Sequence record: OR992643
DNA from: Escherichia phage EP-M-A
DNA: 24,264 bases
Direction: 5' to 3' (one strand)
Positions 1-14,040 of this stretch are shown here, in pieces (positions within the stretch are counted from its first letter, which is position 1; every line of letters begins with the position of its first letter). Both the position numbers and the translations under genes were made by a program. The notes below the pieces were generated by a model. It was not told the DNA's origin. It saw only the letters and a program-made list of their open reading frames with translations, and ran no database searches.

Positions 1-87
1 GATTTCACCCATTACATCTACGACTTGTAACTGCTGCCGTAGTTGGTTAATCAGGTACTCGAATACTTCGTTTTTGTTACTCATCAT
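1..87 (-). CDS. hypothetical protein, 5' part only (runs off the left edge); begins MMSNKNEVFEYLINQLRQQLQVVDVMGEI
   Basis: ATG-ATG at 87..82 on the minus strand with a GGAGG Shine-Dalgarno (plus 94-98) upstream; frame open to the window edge; start overlaps the stop of the upstream gene by 11 nt. Confidence 0.45.
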   Translation of the reverse strand, partial: MMSNKNEVFEYLINQLRQQLQVVDVMGEI

Positions 88-295
88 CCGGTTCCTCCCC
101 GTTATATTCTTCAAACACAAAGGCATCGTCTGCGGATAACGCCCATCGACCATACCCGGTGTAATAGACGTCAAGTTCAGTGCCGTTGTCGTCTATTATG
201 TAGCATCGACTCTCGTCGCTGTCTTCTTTGATGTGGTACAGGTCGTTTTTAGCCAGCGCCCAGTAACCATCGTAGGATTTGCATTCCAGGAACAT
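77..295 (-). CDS. hypothetical small acidic protein, 72 aa
   Basis: ORF from the track; AGGAG Shine-Dalgarno just upstream of the ATG at 295; sits downstream of minus-strand promoter A. Confidence 0.6.
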   Translation of the reverse strand: MFLECKSYDGYWALAKNDLYHIKEDSDESRCYIIDDNGTELDVYYTGYGRWALSADDAFVFEEYNGEEPDDE

Positions 296-325
296 CTCTG
301 TCTCTCCTATCGTCTGTGTAAATGA

Positions 326-354
326 ATAGTAGTCTATTCTATCCCAGTGTGCAA
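326..354 (-). promoter_or_regulatory. sigma70-like promoter (-35 TTGCAC, 17 nt spacer, -10 TACTAT) containing the palindrome GAATAG-N4-CTATTC
   Basis: Read on the minus strand: TTGCAC = plus 349-354, TACTAT = plus 326-331; palindrome at 324-339; about 25 nt upstream of the ATG at 295. Confidence 0.55.
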
Positions 355-361
355 GTAAATT

Positions 362-535
362 TTATTGGTGTGTTATTGAATCGATGAACGCCAGTAAACC
401 CCGTTCCGCCTCTGCTTCTCTTTCTTCAAGCGACCAGGTAGCGGATTCCTCTGTTGCCGGTGCTAAATCGGTTTTTACATCCATCATTGTGTCGATTAAC
501 GCGATTAGTCGTTCAGCCTGTTCTTTAGTAATCAT
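362..535 (-). CDS. hypothetical protein, 57 aa (MITKEQAERLIALIDTMMDVKTDLAPATEESATWSLEEREAEAERGLLAFIDSITHQ); absent from the ORF track because under 60 aa
   Basis: Hand translation of the minus strand; AGGAG about 8 nt upstream of the ATG at 535; protein-like composition; the overlapping plus ORF 384..596 is low-complexity. Confidence 0.5.
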   Translation of the reverse strand: MITKEQAERLIALIDTMMDVKTDLAPATEESATWSLEEREAEAERGLLAFIDSITHQ

Positions 536-659
536 TGTTGCATCTCCTGCAATAGTCGCTTCGATTGTTGCATTTGGTGAAATAGAACAAAAATGAGAAA
601 AATGATACGCTGCTGTGTAGCAGCGTAAGTCACTCAGTAAAATCCCAAACTATTGAACA

Positions 660-839
660 TCACACTTCCGGCGGCTCGGGTAACGACATCCAGTGGGTCA
701 CCCCGGCACACTTAACATATTCATCACAGACAAAGTCACCGTTGTATCTTGCTATATAGCAGTACCCGGCGCGGACATAGACAATGACATACTCCCCATA
801 TTTAGGCATCTGCTCACTGCACTCAACCCACTTACTCAT
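660..839 (-). CDS. hypothetical protein, 59 aa, ending ...GVTHWMSLPEPPEV (resembles the C-terminal W-x-LPEPP signature of DUF551-type phage proteins)
   Basis: Hand translation; GAGGTGA Shine-Dalgarno directly upstream of the ATG at 839; its start context overlaps the stop of the upstream gene 843..986. Family assignment is from memory. Confidence 0.5.
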   Translation of the reverse strand: MSKWVECSEQMPKYGEYVIVYVRAGYCYIARYNGDFVCDEYVKCAGVTHWMSLPEPPEV

Positions 840-842
840 ATC

Positions 843-986
843 TCACCTCGTATTCATCACAGCTTGCACACCAGCTTTCCACGCCCGCCACGCGAGACGC
901 GTCTTAACGTTAAGGTACTCTTTCTTCGAACCCTTGTTAATCGGCAAACCCTCGACGATGGCCCACCGTTCAAATGCTTCTCTCAT
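843..986 (-). CDS. hypothetical protein, 47 aa (MREAFERWAIVEGLPINKGSKKEYLNVKTRLAWRAWKAGVQAVMNTR)
   Basis: Hand translation; its TGA stop lies inside the GAGGTGAGATATG start context of the next gene, a translational-coupling arrangement. Confidence 0.45.
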   Translation of the reverse strand: MREAFERWAIVEGLPINKGSKKEYLNVKTRLAWRAWKAGVQAVMNTR

Positions 987-1019
987 ACCAACCCCCGCAC
1001 CACATAAACGGTTAAAATA

Positions 1020-1319
1020 TTACTTAACACGGCAACCTCCCTCAGAGTCGTCGGCACGAGCATCATGATTCGATGCCGTTCGTATAAACAGCTTACCTTT
1101 GCGCTGTAACAAATCCATTGTCACGGCGCCAGCCCCTGACTTATTAGGGCGACGCAGCCGGCTAAAATTCCATACCCGGGCCTTTGTTACATCCCGGGCG
1201 TTACATACCCACAAAGCACCATTTTCTCTTAGTTCCAGTAAATCAGAAATGTTGAAATTATTTACTGGGATAAACCCGCTAATGAACTGGCGTTCGCATT
1301 GAGGTAATTCTTCCATCAC
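1020..1319 (-). CDS. hypothetical protein, 99 aa
   Basis: ORF from the track; ATGA start/stop overlap with the upstream gene 1316..1501; purine-rich GGGGTGA upstream of the start. Confidence 0.55.
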   Translation of the reverse strand: MMEELPQCERQFISGFIPVNNFNISDLLELRENGALWVCNARDVTKARVWNFSRLRRPNKSGAGAVTMDLLQRKGKLFIRTASNHDARADDSEGGCRVK

Positions 1320-1501
1320 TTCACCCCTTTGAATTTAAAATTGTTGCCGATGAGTTTTATCTCGTCCCCGAAGCACCACTTACCGAAACGCTGGTTAGGT
1401 GTACGGATGTAGTACATCCCGTTAACCTTATTTGAAATTCGTTCGATAGCACCGTAATAACCGTAATCGTTTACTTTAACCAACTGACCCTTCTTAAACA
1501 T
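1316..1501 (-). CDS. hypothetical protein, 61 aa
   Basis: ORF from the track; GAGGAG Shine-Dalgarno 9 nt upstream of the ATG at 1501; first gene downstream of minus-strand promoter B. Confidence 0.6.
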   Translation of the reverse strand: MFKKGQLVKVNDYGYYGAIERISNKVNGMYYIRTPNQRFGKWCFGDEIKLIGNNFKFKGVK

Positions 1502-1536
1502 AACCCCTCGCTCCTCTGTCTCGTTTCGATAAGTGA

Positions 1537-1565
1537 ATAGTAACCTATTATGTTGGGGTGTGCAA
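1537..1565 (-). promoter_or_regulatory. sigma70-like promoter (-35 TTGCAC, 17 nt spacer, -10 TACTAT) with palindrome GAATAG-taac-CTATTA at 1535-1550
   Basis: Same TTGCAC-N17-TACTATTCA architecture as the promoter at 326-354; TTGCAC = plus 1560-1565, TACTAT = plus 1537-1542; drives the leftward small-gene operon. Confidence 0.55.
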
Positions 1566-1637
1566 GAGAATAGTTACGTTGCCGTTGTGATTCTTTAGGG
1601 AAGGTTGTGCCTTTATTCTTATTACTTGGTAACTAAA

Positions 1638-1658
1638 GGGCAGGCCTTAAGCCTGCCC
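1638..1658. other. perfect 8 bp GC-rich hairpin GGGCAGGC-cttaa-GCCTGCCC in the non-coding region
   Basis: Inverted repeat read directly; on the minus strand it is followed by a T-rich run (TTTAGTT). Possible insulator/terminator or RNA element. Confidence 0.4.
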
Positions 1659-1935
1659 GATAATCGTTACATTTTTACGGTTGCGAATCTACGGCACATT
1701 AAGAAAATCAGATACTTAAGAGATATGCTGCCGGTGAGAATAGAGCTTGCCCAGGGCAACCGGAGATACTTAGGAAGGAAAGTTACGATAATTCTCGTGT
1801 TCAGTAAGCCTGTGTTTAACCCTTTGCTTGACGCACGGGTTAAACATTCTTACAAGGTGAACAGGAATCAAAGTAACTAAGATATAGAAGCACCTTAAAC
1901 GAAGATTTTCATAATGTCAATAGGTGCGATTATGT

Positions 1936-1964
1936 TTGATTTCCCATTATTCGCAATGTATACT
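1936..1964 (+). promoter_or_regulatory. sigma70-like promoter (-35 TTGATT, 17 nt spacer, -10 TATACT) for the rightward operon
   Basis: Hexamers and spacing read directly; about 30 nt upstream of the ATG at 1997; lacks the GAATAG palindrome. Confidence 0.45.
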
Positions 1965-1996
1965 TGGTTCCGTTAACTGATAATGAGGGGTTGAGA

Positions 1997-2397: not shown

Positions 2398-2456
2398 AAG
2401 AAAGCCCCGACGCGGTGAACGCCGAGGCCAAATTACTTGCTGAAGGAATATACAAC

Positions 2457-4700
2457 ATGTCCGATGTAATTTTATCCTACTCGTGGTCTCGTCGCAACGC
2501 GCGAGCAGAGAAAAAGGATATAAACGTCAGAACCACACACATGGCAACACTGGACGACCTGAAAGAGTTAATCCGGCCGCTCGATGCTGTTCGTGATGGG
2601 GTTAACCCGAAGACCGCGCCCGGCTATATCACAGCCGCGTGCGACTCAACACACAGCACCGTAAAAGACCCGGAAACCGGGGACTTTAAGCAAGCGCGTA
2701 AAGGCTTCTTTTATCGCTGTGACGCGTCTGTAAGCAAATCGTCGCTGGCATATCTGGACTTCGACAGCACAACGCCGGAAGAGTATCAGGAAGCGGTGCG
2801 ACTGGTTAAGCGCAGCCGTCAGGCCATGTGCCTCTATACCACGGCATCCCATACCGATGAGTCACCGCGCTTTCGCGTCGTTATGCCCCTGGGCCGACCG
2901 GTTGAAGGTGGTGACATAATCCGTGTTCGTCATGGATTGCTTGAGCACTTCTTCAAAGGCATGGGTGCGGACCGCAGCGGGTTCACTCTTTCGCAGCCGA
3001 TGTACCTGCCGCCGGTCGGCTCTACCGTTATCTGGTCGCGTCGCAACGACCTGATTGACCCGGACGAGTTACTGGAAGGCATCCCGGATTACGATGTGAG
3101 CAGCGCATCGGATTACCAGATACCGGAAGAACTGCGCACCGCGTTTACAGACGCGTTCGAGGCGCTGGCGTTTGAGTATGGCGGCATCATGACGCCCCGC
3201 GGCCTTAAGATGCCAGCTACACCAGAACACGCAGAGAACTACAGCGACCCGACCCCTCGCCCGGATGACTTCCTGCTGTGTTTCCCGCGTGAGGGCTACG
3301 AAGCGCCTAACGTAACCATGATTCACGACACCGACATTACGGCAACCGAAGGCATGTCGCCGAAAGAGGTGTGGAGATACGCGTGCGATGCGACCGGGCT
3401 GCCATTCAGTGAAGTCGCCGAGGCTATCGGCTGGGGTGCACGTGAATATGTCTCATGCAGCCTCGACGACCTGGAAGATGGTGATGAGGACTCAGAGGAG
3501 GATGAGTTACCGGAACCGGTAAAGGCTGATTTCGTCGTTGAGGGGTATATGCCGTCGGATTGTATCTGGGATATTGTTGGGGAATCAGGCACGTACAAAT
3601 CATTCTATACGCTGGGTATGATGTACCTTAGCGCGGCGGGATACCGGTTTGCAGGCGCTGACACCCAGCGTTGCCACCACTTCTATATCGACGGTGAGGG
3701 GGGCGCAGCCACACGTACACGTATTGACGCGCTCGCGGCTAAATACGGCGCAGAGGGTAAAGATTATGTACACGTCATCGACATGGGCGAAGTCGGCAAA
3801 CTTAAAAGCCTGATTAAGTTAATGCGCGAAACTGCGGGCGATGAACCTATCGGCATGGTCGCGTTCGACACCCTTAACCAGACCCTGGCCCTGACGATTG
3901 ATAAGTTCGACGAGAACAGCTCATCAACGGCAATCGGTATGGGTAAAGTTATCGCCATCCTGAAAGAAGTACGTGATGCGACTAAAGCCGCGGTGGGCGT
4001 CGTCCACCATACACCGAAGGGTGGAAAGAAAGCCCGCGGTAGTGGGGCGCTGTATGCGGGCGTCGACGTGGAACTGACAATCGAACGCGCCACTGACCGT
4101 CAGATAAACGTATACCACTCTAAATTTAAGCATGGGCCTCAACAGAAGACGGTTGGCATGGTGCTGGAGTCGGTACAGTTCCGTGAAGCGCCACCACCGA
4201 AAGAGTACCGTGCGGTTGAGTTCCTCGGTAGCACAGAGGAATACGGCACAATCGTAAACCTCGACCTGCCGGAACCGCACAAGGCGCTTGTGCTGATGCC
4301 GTGGGGATTCGAGCCGTTCAAGACTGACGAGGAGAAGGAGCGGGAAGAAGGGCTGACAAAGGAAGGTAAAGAAAACGTAAAGAATGCTGTGAAACGTGGG
4401 AAGGATGAAGGGCGTAAGGAATCAATACTCGCCGCGCTGGAAGACCTGCAACAGTCTGACGACACCGGACGCGGTTTTACCCAACGACAGATAGTAGCGA
4501 ACTCGGGTGACCACGCCATCACCAACCATCATCTTGAGAAGATGCTGAAAGACGGGGAGTTGATGCTTGGGTGTGATATTAACGGTGAAGTTATGCCGGG
4601 CACATACCGGATACCGGAAAAGATGGGTGACAGATTAAGACCGAAGACAATATACGAACCGAATGAAATGCTGGTGGTGACAGAGGAGGATTTGGAATAG
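2457..4700 (+). CDS. bifunctional DNA primase/helicase: N-terminal archaeo-eukaryotic-primase-like (PrimPol) domain plus C-terminal RecA-fold (DnaB/RepA-like) ATPase
   Basis: AEP-like motifs (LDFD; TTASH); Walker A GESGTYKSF; Walker B MVAFDTLN; HHTPKG...ARGSGAL; ends VTEEDLE. Start set at ATG 2457 (GAAGGAA upstream) rather than the GTG at 2415. Confidence 0.8.
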   Translation: MSDVILSYSWSRRNARAEKKDINVRTTHMATLDDLKELIRPLDAVRDGVNPKTAPGYITAACDSTHSTVKDPETGDFKQARKGFFYRCDASVSKSSLAYLDFDSTTPEEYQEAVRLVKRSRQAMCLYTTASHTDESPRFRVVMPLGRPVEGGDIIRVRHGLLEHFFKGMGADRSGFTLSQPMYLPPVGSTVIWSRRNDLIDPDELLEGIPDYDVSSASDYQIPEELRTAFTDAFEALAFEYGGIMTPRGLKMPATPEHAENYSDPTPRPDDFLLCFPREGYEAPNVTMIHDTDITATEGMSPKEVWRYACDATGLPFSEVAEAIGWGAREYVSCSLDDLEDGDEDSEEDELPEPVKADFVVEGYMPSDCIWDIVGESGTYKSFYTLGMMYLSAAGYRFAGADTQRCHHFYIDGEGGAATRTRIDALAAKYGAEGKDYVHVIDMGEVGKLKSLIKLMRETAGDEPIGMVAFDTLNQTLALTIDKFDENSSSTAIGMGKVIAILKEVRDATKAAVGVVHHTPKGGKKARGSGALYAGVDVELTIERATDRQINVYHSKFKHGPQQKTVGMVLESVQFREAPPPKEYRAVEFLGSTEEYGTIVNLDLPEPHKALVLMPWGFEPFKTDEEKEREEGLTKEGKENVKNAVKRGKDEGRKESILAALEDLQQSDDTGRGFTQRQIVANSGDHAITNHHLEKMLKDGELMLGCDINGEVMPGTYRIPEKMGDRLRPKTIYEPNEMLVVTEEDLE

Positions 4701-14020: not shown

Positions 14021-14040
14021 AAGGCCCCGTTTGGGGCCTT
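14021..14040. terminator. bidirectional terminator hairpin AAGGCCCC-gttt-GGGGCCTT between convergent operons
   Basis: Perfect 8 bp stem; T-rich on the minus-strand side (downstream of the tailspike gene). Confidence 0.65.

What the first reader, a model, noticed from the sequence alone, without database searches (positions are those of the whole stretch)
1502..1996. Roughly 500 bp non-coding control region with a perfect GC hairpin
No supported coding frame lies between the leftward promoter at 1537-1565 and the rightward gene at 1997. The region holds an extra CTATTC half-site (about 1568-1577), a perfect hairpin GGGCAGGC-cttaa-GCCTGCCC (1638-1658) and a rightward promoter (1936-1964). This is long for a phage intergenic region and could encode a small RNA, a replication origin or an insulator between divergent early operons.
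Basis: seen in the sequence. Interest (0 to 1): 0.35.

Follow-up and report, generated by a model that had tools for sequence, protein, structure and literature searches.

The report
Structured non-coding early control region
The 500-base gap between the two divergent early operons of this Kagunavirus phage is real, non-coding and strongly conserved. It holds its own leftward promoter and two long conserved hairpins, so it most likely makes an uncharacterised early non-coding RNA or leader, though no transcript has been shown.

Summary
The window is a Kagunavirus (Guernseyvirinae) genome, 100% identical to Escherichia phage EP-B-K_E2.

- A leftward sigma-70 promoter at 1920..1892 (TTGACA-17-TAAGGT). 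An equivalent promoter is present in every sequence type of this gap.
- A 98-nt imperfect hairpin at 1781-1878. Relatives keep it through compensatory changes (24 of 37 pairs).
- The GC hairpin is the tip of a roughly 117-nt palindromic cassette (1580-1696).

The block 1601-1735 is 90-95% identical between Kagunavirus and Jerseyvirus. That is slower than third codon positions of the neighbouring regulator gene (73-77%).

Cornellvirus and Dhillonvirus relatives have only about 100-150 nt here, so the extra roughly 370 nt is a lineage-specific insert.

Best reading (confidence 0.45): an early leftward non-coding RNA or leader of about 250 nt or more. The GC hairpin would act as a leaky terminator or insulator ahead of the operator-controlled leftward promoter.

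Origin hallmarks (iterons, DnaA boxes) are absent. There is no Rfam match. The transcribed strand is not settled computationally. Interest is moderate.

The parts
1537..1565 (-). Proximal leftward promoter P_L: TTGCAC-17-TACTAT, with the palindromic operator-like motif GAATAGTAACCTATT at 1535-1549.
   Evidence: Sequence read. The palindrome occurs at 7 promoter-like sites in the window. A 48-nt copy of this promoter segment recurs elsewhere in most relatives. The same consensus was reported by PHIRE for fBC-Eco01 (PMC9825357).
1526..1554 (+). Possible weak rightward promoter, TCGATA-17-TATGTT (8 of 12). It overlaps P_L and is uncertain.
   Evidence: Read. The equivalent sites score 9 of 12 in L015 and L030.
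1566..1573 (.). GAGAATAG half-site. A second copy lies at 1736-1743.
   Evidence: repeat D8.
1573..1711 (.). Cassette M1. Its ends can pair (TGCCGT at 1580-1585 with ACGGCA at 1691-1696). Inner tiers are GTGCC 1607-1611 with GGCAC 1693-1697, and GTAAC 1629-1633 with GTTAC 1666-1670. It is bounded by AGTTAC and ATCAG.
   Evidence: A second sequence type (B) occupies the same place in other Kagunaviruses. The cassette is absent in L028-L030 and in phage Jersey, where the match starts only at about window 1708. The block 1601-1735 is 90-95% identical to Jerseyvirus.
1638..1658 (-). Perfect GC hairpin GGGCAGGC-CTTAA-GCCTGCCC. On the minus strand it is followed by TTTAGTTACC, which makes it terminator-like.
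   Evidence: (I11) and the terminator scan. ARNold called it a terminator on the same strand in fBC-Eco01. Three of 8 stem pairs change on both sides across variants and none is broken.
1710..1780 (.). Module M2. It holds the direct repeats AGATACTTAAGA (1710-1721) and AGATACTTAGGA (1764-1775), the half-site at 1736-1743, a small hairpin TTGCC/GGCAA (1748-1760), and a purine-rich run at 1772-1782 (pyrimidine-rich CUUUCCUUCCU on the minus strand).
1781..1878 (-). Hairpin HP2, a 98-nt imperfect hairpin running AGTTAC...GTAACT. The tip is G+C-rich and varies in sequence.
   Evidence: Folding gives -38 kcal/mol and z -7.6. On a model-fitted alignment of 29 distinct sequences, 96.8% of cells pair and 24 of 37 pairs change on both sides.
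1892..1920 (-). Distal leftward promoter P_minus: TTGACA (1920..1915), 17-nt spacer, TAAGGT (1897..1892). The predicted start is near 1885.
   Evidence: The same site is annotated as a promoter in the Jersey and AG11 records, and a host promoter about 100 nt upstream of the regulator gene on the same strand in fBC-Eco01. Equivalents exist in all types of this gap.
1936..1964 (+). Rightward promoter P_R (TTGATT-17-TATACT) for the HTH_17 regulator gene at 1997-2167 and the replication operon.
   Evidence: It is conserved in relatives. The HTH gene is an early gene in a Kagunavirus RNA-seq study (PMC12645636).
1630..1885 (-). Predicted non-coding transcript of about 250 nt if it ends at the GC hairpin. 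It would be longer if the hairpin is read through.
   Evidence: Inferred from P_minus and the terminator-like hairpin. It folds at -78.3 kcal/mol with z -5.0. No transcript data exist.

Best explanation
The gap is a transcribed, non-coding early control region. Host RNA polymerase starts at a strong leftward sigma-70 promoter (1920..1892), which sits back to back with the rightward promoter of the HTH regulator gene.

The transcript runs leftward through three elements in turn:
- a 98-nt hairpin (1878..1781);
- a conserved stretch with two short repeats;

On this strand the GC hairpin is followed by UUUAGUU. It probably ends part of the transcripts, giving a structured RNA of about 250 nt. It would also shield the operator-controlled proximal leftward promoter (1565..1537) from read-through.

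**Shown:** the promoter motifs and their conservation, the hairpins and their compensatory changes, the absence of a coding frame, and purifying selection.

**Inferred:** that the RNA is made, which strand is used, where it ends, and what it does. Candidate roles are a stabilising or processing signal, a leader or attenuator for the leftward early genes, or a trans-acting RNA.
For: **Promoter**
- P_minus has an invariant TTGACA across 22 type-A sequences.
- A counterpart sits at the same place in every type of this gap: Jersey TTGACA-17-TAAGTT and type B TTGACT-17-TAAGCT, type C TTGACA-16-TAAAAT at 11 of 12, and the L038 type TTGAAA-18-TATAAT at 11 of 12.
- Three GenBank records annotate a leftward promoter here independently.

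**Structure**
- HP2 has 96.8% of cells paired and 24 of 37 pairs with changes on both sides. With partners slid by 1-3 columns, only 27-42% pair and 2-5 pairs covary.
- At least five tip variants all fold into one long hairpin.
- In the GC hairpin, 3 of 8 pairs covary between type A, Jersey and type B, and none is broken.

**Terminator**
- The GC hairpin is called a terminator only on the minus strand, by the scan here and by ARNold in fBC-Eco01.

**Strand hints**
- Several G.U pairs in the minus sense are fixed in whole clades. In the plus sense they would be C.A mismatches.
- The isolated hairpins give lower z-scores in the minus sense.

**Selection and context**
- Block 1601-1735 is 90-95% identical to Jerseyvirus, against 73-77% at third codon positions of the adjacent HTH gene.
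- The neighbouring leftward gene is only 35-55% identical in protein.
- Cornellvirus and Dhillonvirus have only about 100-150 nt between the divergent genes. The extra roughly 370 nt therefore behaves as an inserted promoter-to-hairpin unit.
- The phage carries a second promoter-plus-terminator unit without an ORF on the same strand, at 2497..2403.
Against: - **No transcript data.** The one Kagunavirus RNA-seq paper does not mention intergenic or non-coding transcripts.
- **Weak terminator tail.** TTTAGTTACC is weaker than the tails of the phage's clear terminators. Type B has no T-run and is not called a terminator.
- **Conservation runs past the hairpin.** It continues about 65 nt beyond it, and the tail lies inside a larger stem. 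The hairpin may therefore not be the 3' end.
- **Strand unresolved by energy.** Whole-region z-scores favour the minus sense in 7 of 11 types and the plus sense in 4. Consensus folds of the two strands are equal.
- **Biased and thin wobble counts.** The G.U counts come from an alignment fitted to the minus sense. Counted as evolutionary events they are about 4 against 3.
- **Opposite hint in Jersey.** An extra Jersey-only hairpin has GNRA loops and a G.U pair on the plus strand.
- **No shared seed.** The body of the predicted RNA differs completely between types, so no common seed or target is visible.
- **Target scan uninformative.** A duplex scan against phage ribosome-binding sites gave nothing beyond shuffles.
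Confidence: 0.45

Rival explanations
1. The region is a DNA-level replication element. It would be an origin, or single-strand initiation hairpins, for the adjacent primase-helicase. The divergent promoters would open the DNA or prime synthesis, and the two palindromes would extrude as hairpins.
For: - It lies directly upstream of the replication operon: HTH gene, a 77-aa gene and the AAA_25 primase-helicase.
- It is A+T-rich, 37-43% G+C.
- It holds two roughly 100-bp palindromes.
- The hairpin loop is inverted in two lineages, as expected of a DNA palindrome.
- The cumulative GC skew has its minimum here.
- Strand tests do not exclude a symmetric DNA element.
Against: - There are no tandem repeats, and direct repeats occur only in two copies.
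- No exact DnaA box is present, and near-matches are at or below chance.
- AGTTAC is enriched only in type A and by eye is not enriched in type B.
- Cassette M1 is absent from phage Jersey and replaced in Kagunaviruses whose helicase is 85-88% identical.
- The same type-A sequence goes with helicases of 97%, 88% and 64% identity.
- Cornellvirus has no such region.
- The skew minimum coincides with the switch of gene orientation, so it is not informative.
Confidence: 0.15
2. The region is a protein-binding control region only. It would be an array of operators for the HTH_17 protein and for the factor that binds the GAATAG palindrome. On this reading the GC hairpin is a plain terminator and the long hairpins have no RNA role.
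For: - Half-sites GAGAATAG occur at 1566 and 1736, and repeats AGATACTTA(A/G)GA lie 54 nt apart.
- The HTH allele tracks the right half of the gap: 96-98% identity with a type-A right half, 73-87% otherwise.
- Near-invariance of unpaired stretches fits sequence-specific binding.
Against: Operators do not explain the many compensatory changes that keep a 98-nt hairpin while its sequence changes. They also do not explain a dedicated strong promoter pointing into a gene-free stretch.
Confidence: 0.2
3. The functional RNA is rightward. It would be a long structured 5' leader of the HTH and replication operon, started at the weak promoter 1526-1554.
For: - Plus-strand promoter-like sites score 9 of 12 in L015 and L030.
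- The plus strand folds as well as the minus strand.
- The Jersey-only extra hairpin has GNRA loops (GTAA, GCAA, GCGA) and a G.U pair on the plus strand.
- Shine-Dalgarno-like purine runs lie on the plus strand at 1762-1782 and 1853-1858.
Against: - In the window the site scores only 8 of 12 and overlaps P_L.
- P_R already gives the HTH gene a 26-nt leader.
- HP2 has clade-wide C.A mismatches in the plus sense.
- There is no plus-strand terminator or start codon after the purine runs.
Confidence: 0.1
4. M1 and HP2 are selfish or neutral palindromic cassettes, comparable to miniature inverted-repeat elements, and have no role for the phage.
For: - M1 shows presence or absence between relatives, with flanking short direct repeats TCAGTTAC and TCAGATAC and pairing ends.
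- Modules recombine freely between phages.
Against: - There is one copy per genome.
- There is no match in 5,426 E. coli genomes or 72,556 plasmids.
- Sequence conservation matches non-synonymous sites.
- Total gap length is kept at 474-505 nt across types.
Confidence: 0.07
5. The region holds an unannotated small protein gene.
For: A few records annotate ORFs here, for example Bas73_0055. The window has a 91-aa TTG ORF on the plus strand.
Against: - Frames and stops differ between close relatives, and a 10-nt indel falls inside the ORF.
- No Pfam or PHROG family matches.
- No ribosome-binding site is correctly spaced from a start codon.
Confidence: 0.03

Closest known systems
Promoter-plus-intrinsic-terminator small RNA genes of phages, such as lambda OOP, P22 sar and P1/P7 c4 (named from my own knowledge)
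   Same: A short ORF-free unit with its own sigma-70 promoter, stable hairpins and a hairpin-plus-U end. It sits in the early control region next to a regulator gene.
   Different: - The known RNAs are 60-80 nt and antisense to a defined mRNA.
- Here the RNA would be about 250 nt, with no gene on the opposite strand and no identified target.
- The phage is virulent.
- The U-tract is poor.
Cis-acting leader RNA structures of phage early operons: HK022 put sites, lambda nut sites and the N-leader RNase III site, and T7 RNase III processing hairpins (from my own knowledge)
   Same: Long imperfect hairpins lie just downstream of an early promoter. Structure is conserved while sequence drifts, and a terminator follows downstream.
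   Different: - No sequence or Rfam similarity was found.
- put and nut elements are much shorter.
- No antiterminator protein is known in these phages.
- A second promoter lies between the structures and the first gene.
T7 and T4 transcription-primed replication origins, a promoter followed by an A+T-rich unwinding region (from my own knowledge)
   Same: A promoter lies next to the replication genes, the DNA is A+T-rich, and the replisome gene set resembles that of T7 (gp2.5-like SSB, family A polymerase, primase-helicase).
   Different: There is no defined unwinding element or primase site. The region is dominated by conserved hairpins and is modular or absent in relatives.
Enterobacterial intergenic palindromic repeats such as ERIC/IRU and REP/BIME (from my own knowledge)
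   Same: Imperfect palindromes of about 100-130 bp lie in transcribed intergenic DNA, vary in presence, and can act as RNA stabilisers or terminators.
   Different: They are single-copy here and have no homologue in E. coli genomes. They are phage-specific.
Published annotation of Kagunavirus fBC-Eco01 (PMC9825357; GenBank OM272052)
   Same: It predicts the same leftward order: host promoter, terminator (the GC hairpin), then a phage-type promoter with the consensus tgAATAGTa-ccTATTat-T.
   Different: The passages of the paper retrieved list these as separate predicted signals. They do not interpret the ORF-free unit, the long hairpins or their conservation.

Membership tests
Sigma-70 promoter (P_minus, 1920..1892) | A -35 and a -10 hexamer close to TTGACA and TATAAT, with a 16-18 bp spacer. 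| tested here: met
   TTGACA-17-TAAGGT scores 9 of 12, with A2 and T6 of the -10 present. It falls below the scan's rule of 4 of 6 for the -10. Counterparts score 10-11 of 12 in Jersey, type C and the L038 type.
Sigma-70 promoter (P_minus, 1920..1892) | Measured transcription start. | not testable with these tools
   No 5'-end data are available.
Intrinsic (Rho-independent) terminator (GC hairpin 1638-1658, minus strand) | A G+C-rich stem-loop followed directly by a U-tract. | tested here: inconclusive
   The stem has 8-9 bp with 7 G-C pairs, and the tail TTTAGTTACC passes the scan and ARNold. The tail is weaker than those of the phage's other terminators. The type-B counterpart has no T-run and is not called.
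Intrinsic (Rho-independent) terminator (GC hairpin 1638-1658, minus strand) | Lies at the end of a transcription unit. | tested here: inconclusive
   It is 227 nt downstream of the predicted start of P_minus. However, conservation and pairing continue beyond it, to about 1580.
Structured non-coding RNA | Secondary structure kept by compensatory substitutions. | tested here: met
   In HP2, 24 of 37 pairs change on both sides and 96.8% of cells pair, against 27-42% when partners are slid (the alignment was fitted to the model). In the GC hairpin, 3 of 8 pairs covary.
Structured non-coding RNA | Strand-specific signal, G.U tolerated on one strand only. | tested here: inconclusive
   There are 43 G.U cells against 8 A.C cells in the minus sense, but only about 4 against 3 independent events, on a biased alignment. 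Energies are mixed.
Structured non-coding RNA | The RNA is detected in infected cells. | not testable with these tools
   The only RNA-seq paper found does not mention intergenic or non-coding transcripts.
Any Rfam family | Covariance-model score at or above the family's gathering threshold. | tested here: not met
   There are no matches in the window or in eight loci that include four other types of this gap. The best sub-threshold hit is 20.8 bits against a threshold of 70.
Replication origin (iteron or DnaA type) | Three or more direct repeats (iterons). | tested here: not met
   There are no tandem repeats and only two-copy direct repeats.
Replication origin (iteron or DnaA type) | DnaA boxes. 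| tested here: not met
   No exact box lies in 1502-1996. One-mismatch matches across the window are below chance, 25 against 37.9.
Replication origin (iteron or DnaA type) | Co-inheritance with the initiator or helicase. | tested here: not met
   Type-A sequence occurs with helicases of 97%, 88% and 64% identity. Types B and C occur with helicases of 84-88% identity.
Replication origin (iteron or DnaA type) | Replication starts here. | not testable with these tools
   This needs marker-frequency analysis or two-dimensional gels.
Protein-coding gene | An open frame conserved in relatives and a family match. | tested here: not met
tRNA or tmRNA | ARAGORN detection. | tested here: not met
   One search found 0 genes.
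Physical genome end (pac or cos site, terminal repeat) | Fixed termini at this site. | tested here: not met
   Records opened in this gap start at different positions. PhageTerm found no termini in fBC-Eco01.

The most novel reading that the evidence does not exclude
Kagunavirus and Jerseyvirus phages carry a previously undescribed family of early non-coding RNAs built from exchangeable palindromic cassettes. The RNA is driven by its own host-type promoter, and its alleles travel with alleles of the neighbouring HTH regulator.

The RNA would act in trans. Possible roles are a decoy or anti-defence RNA, a regulator of the early-to-middle switch, or a primer or regulator of replication. It would not be a mere leader or terminator.
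Probability: 0.15. Interest if true: 0.7.

Novelty: new member of a known kind. Interest (0 to 1): 0.4.

Why it matters
Guernseyvirinae (Jersey-like and K1G-like phages) are among the most often isolated Salmonella and E. coli therapy phages. At least 419 GenBank phage records carry this sequence. Their early regulation is essentially unstudied.

The longest gene-free stretch of these genomes evolves more slowly than synonymous sites of the neighbouring regulator gene (block 1601-1735), has its own promoter, and keeps two long hairpins through compensatory change.

If the RNA exists, it would be a new conserved phage non-coding RNA family, and a handle on how these phages time their two divergent early operons. 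It would also warn annotators against calling ORFs in this gap. If it is only a terminator and operator array, the finding is ordinary.

Tried and rejected
- **Coding gene.** Rejected: no conserved frame, indels not in multiples of three, and no Pfam or PHROG hit.
- **Known RNA families, tRNA and tmRNA.** Nothing found.
- **Host or plasmid homologue, or a multicopy mobile element.** No match in E. coli genomes or plasmids.
- **Iterons and DnaA boxes.** Absent.
- **AGTTAC as an iteron.** Four copies lie within 325 nt, against 11.7 expected in the whole 24-kb window. They form the bases of the two hairpins, and by eye they are not enriched in type B. I treat them as stem sequence rather than binding sites.
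- **Deciding the strand.** I tried wobble counts, per-strand energies and z-scores, and consensus folds of both strands. All were inconclusive.
- **Trans-target search.** A duplex scan of the predicted RNA against all 80 translation-start regions of Bas73 gave a best energy of -47.7, against -45.6 for shuffles. It was uninformative.
- **Physical genome end or packaging site.** This lead arose because several Jerseyvirus records begin inside this gap. I rejected it because the break points differ and PhageTerm found no termini.
- **CRISPR-repeat mimic.** Compared from memory only with the type I-E and I-F repeats. The stems differ, and I did not pursue it.
- **16-mer scan of the viral-contig collection**. 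It returned mostly the same contigs plus likely chance hits.
- **Automatic alignment of type-A and type-B GC hairpins**. It is offset by one column because the loops differ in length, so I counted pairs by eye.
- **One broad literature search** was wasted.
Full report
**Source and setting.** The window is a Kagunavirus (Guernseyvirinae) genome, 100% identical to Escherichia phage EP-B-K_E2 (OR992644) over the query.

Region 1502-1996 lies between two divergent gene blocks:
- On the left is a leftward 61-aa gene (1316-1501), the first of a run of small genes.
- On the right is a rightward 56-aa HTH_17 regulator gene (1997-2167), then a 77-aa gene, then the primase-helicase.

In the annotated relative Bas73 the two arms are the replication and DNA-metabolism genes on one side and small early genes followed by lysis genes on the other. 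This gap is the longest gene-free stretch, about 500 nt if the single ORF annotated inside it is discounted. By my reading of the gene table the next longest is about 180 nt. The HTH gene is one of four early genes in a Kagunavirus RNA-seq study (PMC12645636).

**Check of the observation.**
- The leftward promoter is TTGCAC(1565..1560)-17-TACTAT(1542..1537).
- The GAATAG half-site is at 1568-1573.
- The perfect hairpin is GGGCAGGC-CTTAA-GCCTGCCC at 1638-1658.
- The rightward promoter is TTGATT-17-TATACT at 1936-1964.

G+C-rich perfect hairpins are far more frequent in the window than in shuffles, 3 against 0.05.

No frame is open in all 22 relatives. A 10-nt indel and scattered stops break each candidate. 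The two longest ORFs match no Pfam or PHROG family. The region is therefore non-coding.

**What else is there.** I found five further features.

1. *A second leftward promoter.* P_minus is TTGACA(1920..1915)-17-TAAGGT(1897..1892). It sits back to back with the rightward promoter. The Jersey and AG11 GenBank records annotate this site as a promoter, and fBC-Eco01 annotates a host promoter at a comparable position on the same strand.
2. *A 98-nt imperfect hairpin, HP2 (1781-1878).* It begins 7 nt after the predicted start. It folds at -38 kcal/mol with z -7.6.
3. *A larger palindromic cassette, M1 (1573-1711).* The GC hairpin is its tip. The pairing tiers are TGCCGT/ACGGCA, GTGCC/GGCAC and GTAAC/GTTAC.
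4. *A conserved linker, M2 (1710-1780).* It holds a two-copy repeat and a second GAGAATAG half-site.
5. *A promoter-associated palindrome.* The palindrome at the proximal leftward promoter is one of seven copies at promoter-like sites in the window, against 0.32 matches expected. It matches the PHIRE consensus published for fBC-Eco01.

**Comparative evidence.** The sequence is found in at least 419 phage records, all Kagunavirus or Jerseyvirus types, and is usually left unannotated.

Conservation is uneven between the window and Jerseyvirus:
- Block 1601-1735 is 90-95% identical.
- First and second codon positions of the adjacent HTH gene are 91-95% identical, and third positions 73-77%.
- The HP2 interior is about 50% identical.
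- The neighbouring leftward gene is only 35-55% identical in protein, even among close Kagunaviruses.

The core is therefore under purifying selection at the nucleotide level.

The gap is modular. M1 exists in two sequence types, A and B, that share their ends. The right part (M2, HP2 and the promoters) exists in at least four types. Hybrids occur, and total length stays at 474-505 nt.

M1 is missing in phage Jersey and its closest relatives. There the junction looks like a deletion or insertion between the short direct repeats TCAGTTAC and TCAGATAC.

The HTH allele follows the right part of the gap, not M1.

The more distant Cornellvirus Shemara and Dhillonvirus Bas83 have only about 100-150 nt between the divergent genes. 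In Shemara the two promoters lie back to back. The extra roughly 370 nt is therefore specific to Kagunavirus plus Jerseyvirus.

**Structure is selected.** I aligned 29 distinct sequences to a covariance model of HP2. In that alignment 96.8% of cells pair and 24 of 37 pairs change on both sides. With 3' partners slid by 1-3 columns, only 27-42% pair and 2-5 pairs covary. The alignment was fitted to the model, which favours the structure.

At least five unrelated tip sequences all fold into the same long hairpin.

In the GC hairpin, type A (GGGCAGGC), Jersey (GGGCAGGT/ACCTGCCC) and type B (GGGTGGGC/GCCCACCC) differ by compensatory changes at 3 of 8 pairs. No pair is broken. The loop is inverted in two lineages.

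Type B also forms a three-tier hairpin of similar size.

**Which strand, and RNA or DNA?** Several lines favour a leftward RNA.
- Every type of the gap has a good leftward promoter at the same place. These are Jersey TTGACA-17-TAAGTT, type B TTGACT-17-TAAGCT, type C TTGACA-16-TAAAAT and the L038 type TTGAAA-18-TATAAT.
- The GC hairpin is terminator-like only on the minus strand, by the scan here and by ARNold in fBC-Eco01.
- Several clade-wide G.U pairs in HP2 would be C.A mismatches on the other strand.
- Isolated hairpins have lower z-scores in the minus sense.

Several lines argue against, or leave the question open.
- Whole-region z-scores and consensus folds do not separate the strands.
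- Wobble events are few.
- A weak rightward promoter overlaps P_L.
- A Jersey-only extra hairpin has GNRA loops on the plus strand.
- The terminator tail is poor compared with the phage's clear terminators.
- Type B lacks a T-run.
- Conservation continues past the hairpin.

**Origin reading.** The position next to the replication genes, the A+T-richness and the palindromes are suggestive. Against that:
- There are no iterons or tandem repeats.
- There are no exact DnaA boxes.
- The modules do not travel with the helicase type.
- The cassette is dispensable in some relatives.

The GC-skew minimum coincides with the switch of gene orientation. Genome ends recorded inside this gap in some Jerseyvirus records fall at different positions, and PhageTerm found no termini in fBC-Eco01.

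**Conclusion.** The finding is real. It is more than a hairpin in a long gap.

The most likely reading (0.45) is an early, leftward, ORF-free transcription unit. It would produce a structured RNA of about 250 nt or more. The GC hairpin would act as a leaky terminator or insulator in front of the operator-controlled proximal promoter.

The rivals are:
- protein-binding control DNA only (0.2);
- a DNA-level replication element (0.15);
- a rightward leader (0.1);
- selfish palindromic cassettes (0.07);
- a small protein gene (0.03).

Nothing matches a curated RNA family or host DNA. One published annotation lists the same promoter, terminator and promoter signals without interpreting them.

I rate it a new member of a known kind, of moderate interest. 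The function is unproven, and the decisive experiment is strand-specific mapping of transcript ends.

Noticed in passing
window 2403-2497, minus strand: A candidate antisense RNA lies over the start of the primase-helicase gene. A promoter-like TTGCGA-17-TAAAAT (2497..2469) is followed by a terminator hairpin (2429..2403) with the tail TTCTTTTATT. The hairpin has three G.U pairs in the minus sense, which would be A.C mismatches in the plus sense. Jerseyvirus keeps it through compensatory changes. An RNA of about 60 nt would cover the ribosome-binding site and start codons at 2415 and 2457.
   Followed up: partly
window 324, 1535, 4963, 5007, 7320, 11230 and 22861: The palindrome GAATAGTAnnCTATT sits inside seven promoter-like sites, giving 8 matches against 0.32 expected. 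The sites fall into two classes: TTGACA-N4-GAATAGnnnnCTAT-TATAGT, and TTGC(A/G)(C/T)-ACCCCAAyATAATAGGk-TACTAT. This looks like a genome-wide operator in the promoter spacer. The fBC-Eco01 paper reported the motif as a PHIRE 'phage promoter' consensus.
   Followed up: partly
L001 (SZH-1) 1849-1869 and L009 1236-1256, equivalent to window 1638-1658: The 5-nt loop of the GC hairpin is inverted (CTTAA becomes TTAAG) while the stem is unchanged. This is as expected from template switching or recombination within a perfect palindrome.
   Followed up: yes
L003 (ZCEC5) 2199-2351; also L009 and L011: Some Kagunaviruses carry an extra ORF of about 50 aa inserted between the rightward promoter and the HTH gene. 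It reuses the same ribosome-binding site and start context.
   Followed up: no
L027-L036, L042 and L044 (Jerseyvirus), left of the M1 cassette: An extra hairpin GCGCTTGCC-GNRA-GGCAAGTGC has variant loops GTAA, GCAA and GCGA and a G.U pair on the plus strand. It is preceded by a C/U-rich run. This hints at a plus-sense RNA element in Jerseyvirus that the window lacks.
   Followed up: partly
window 606-627 and 14021-14040: Two clear minus-strand intrinsic terminators with strong T-runs. The second lies between convergent genes. I used them as the yardstick for the weak tail of the GC hairpin.
   Followed up: yes
window 1-1501 and relatives: The leftward early genes are highly mosaic. The first gene is only 35-55% identical in protein among phages whose adjacent non-coding region is 90-97% identical.
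   Followed up: partly
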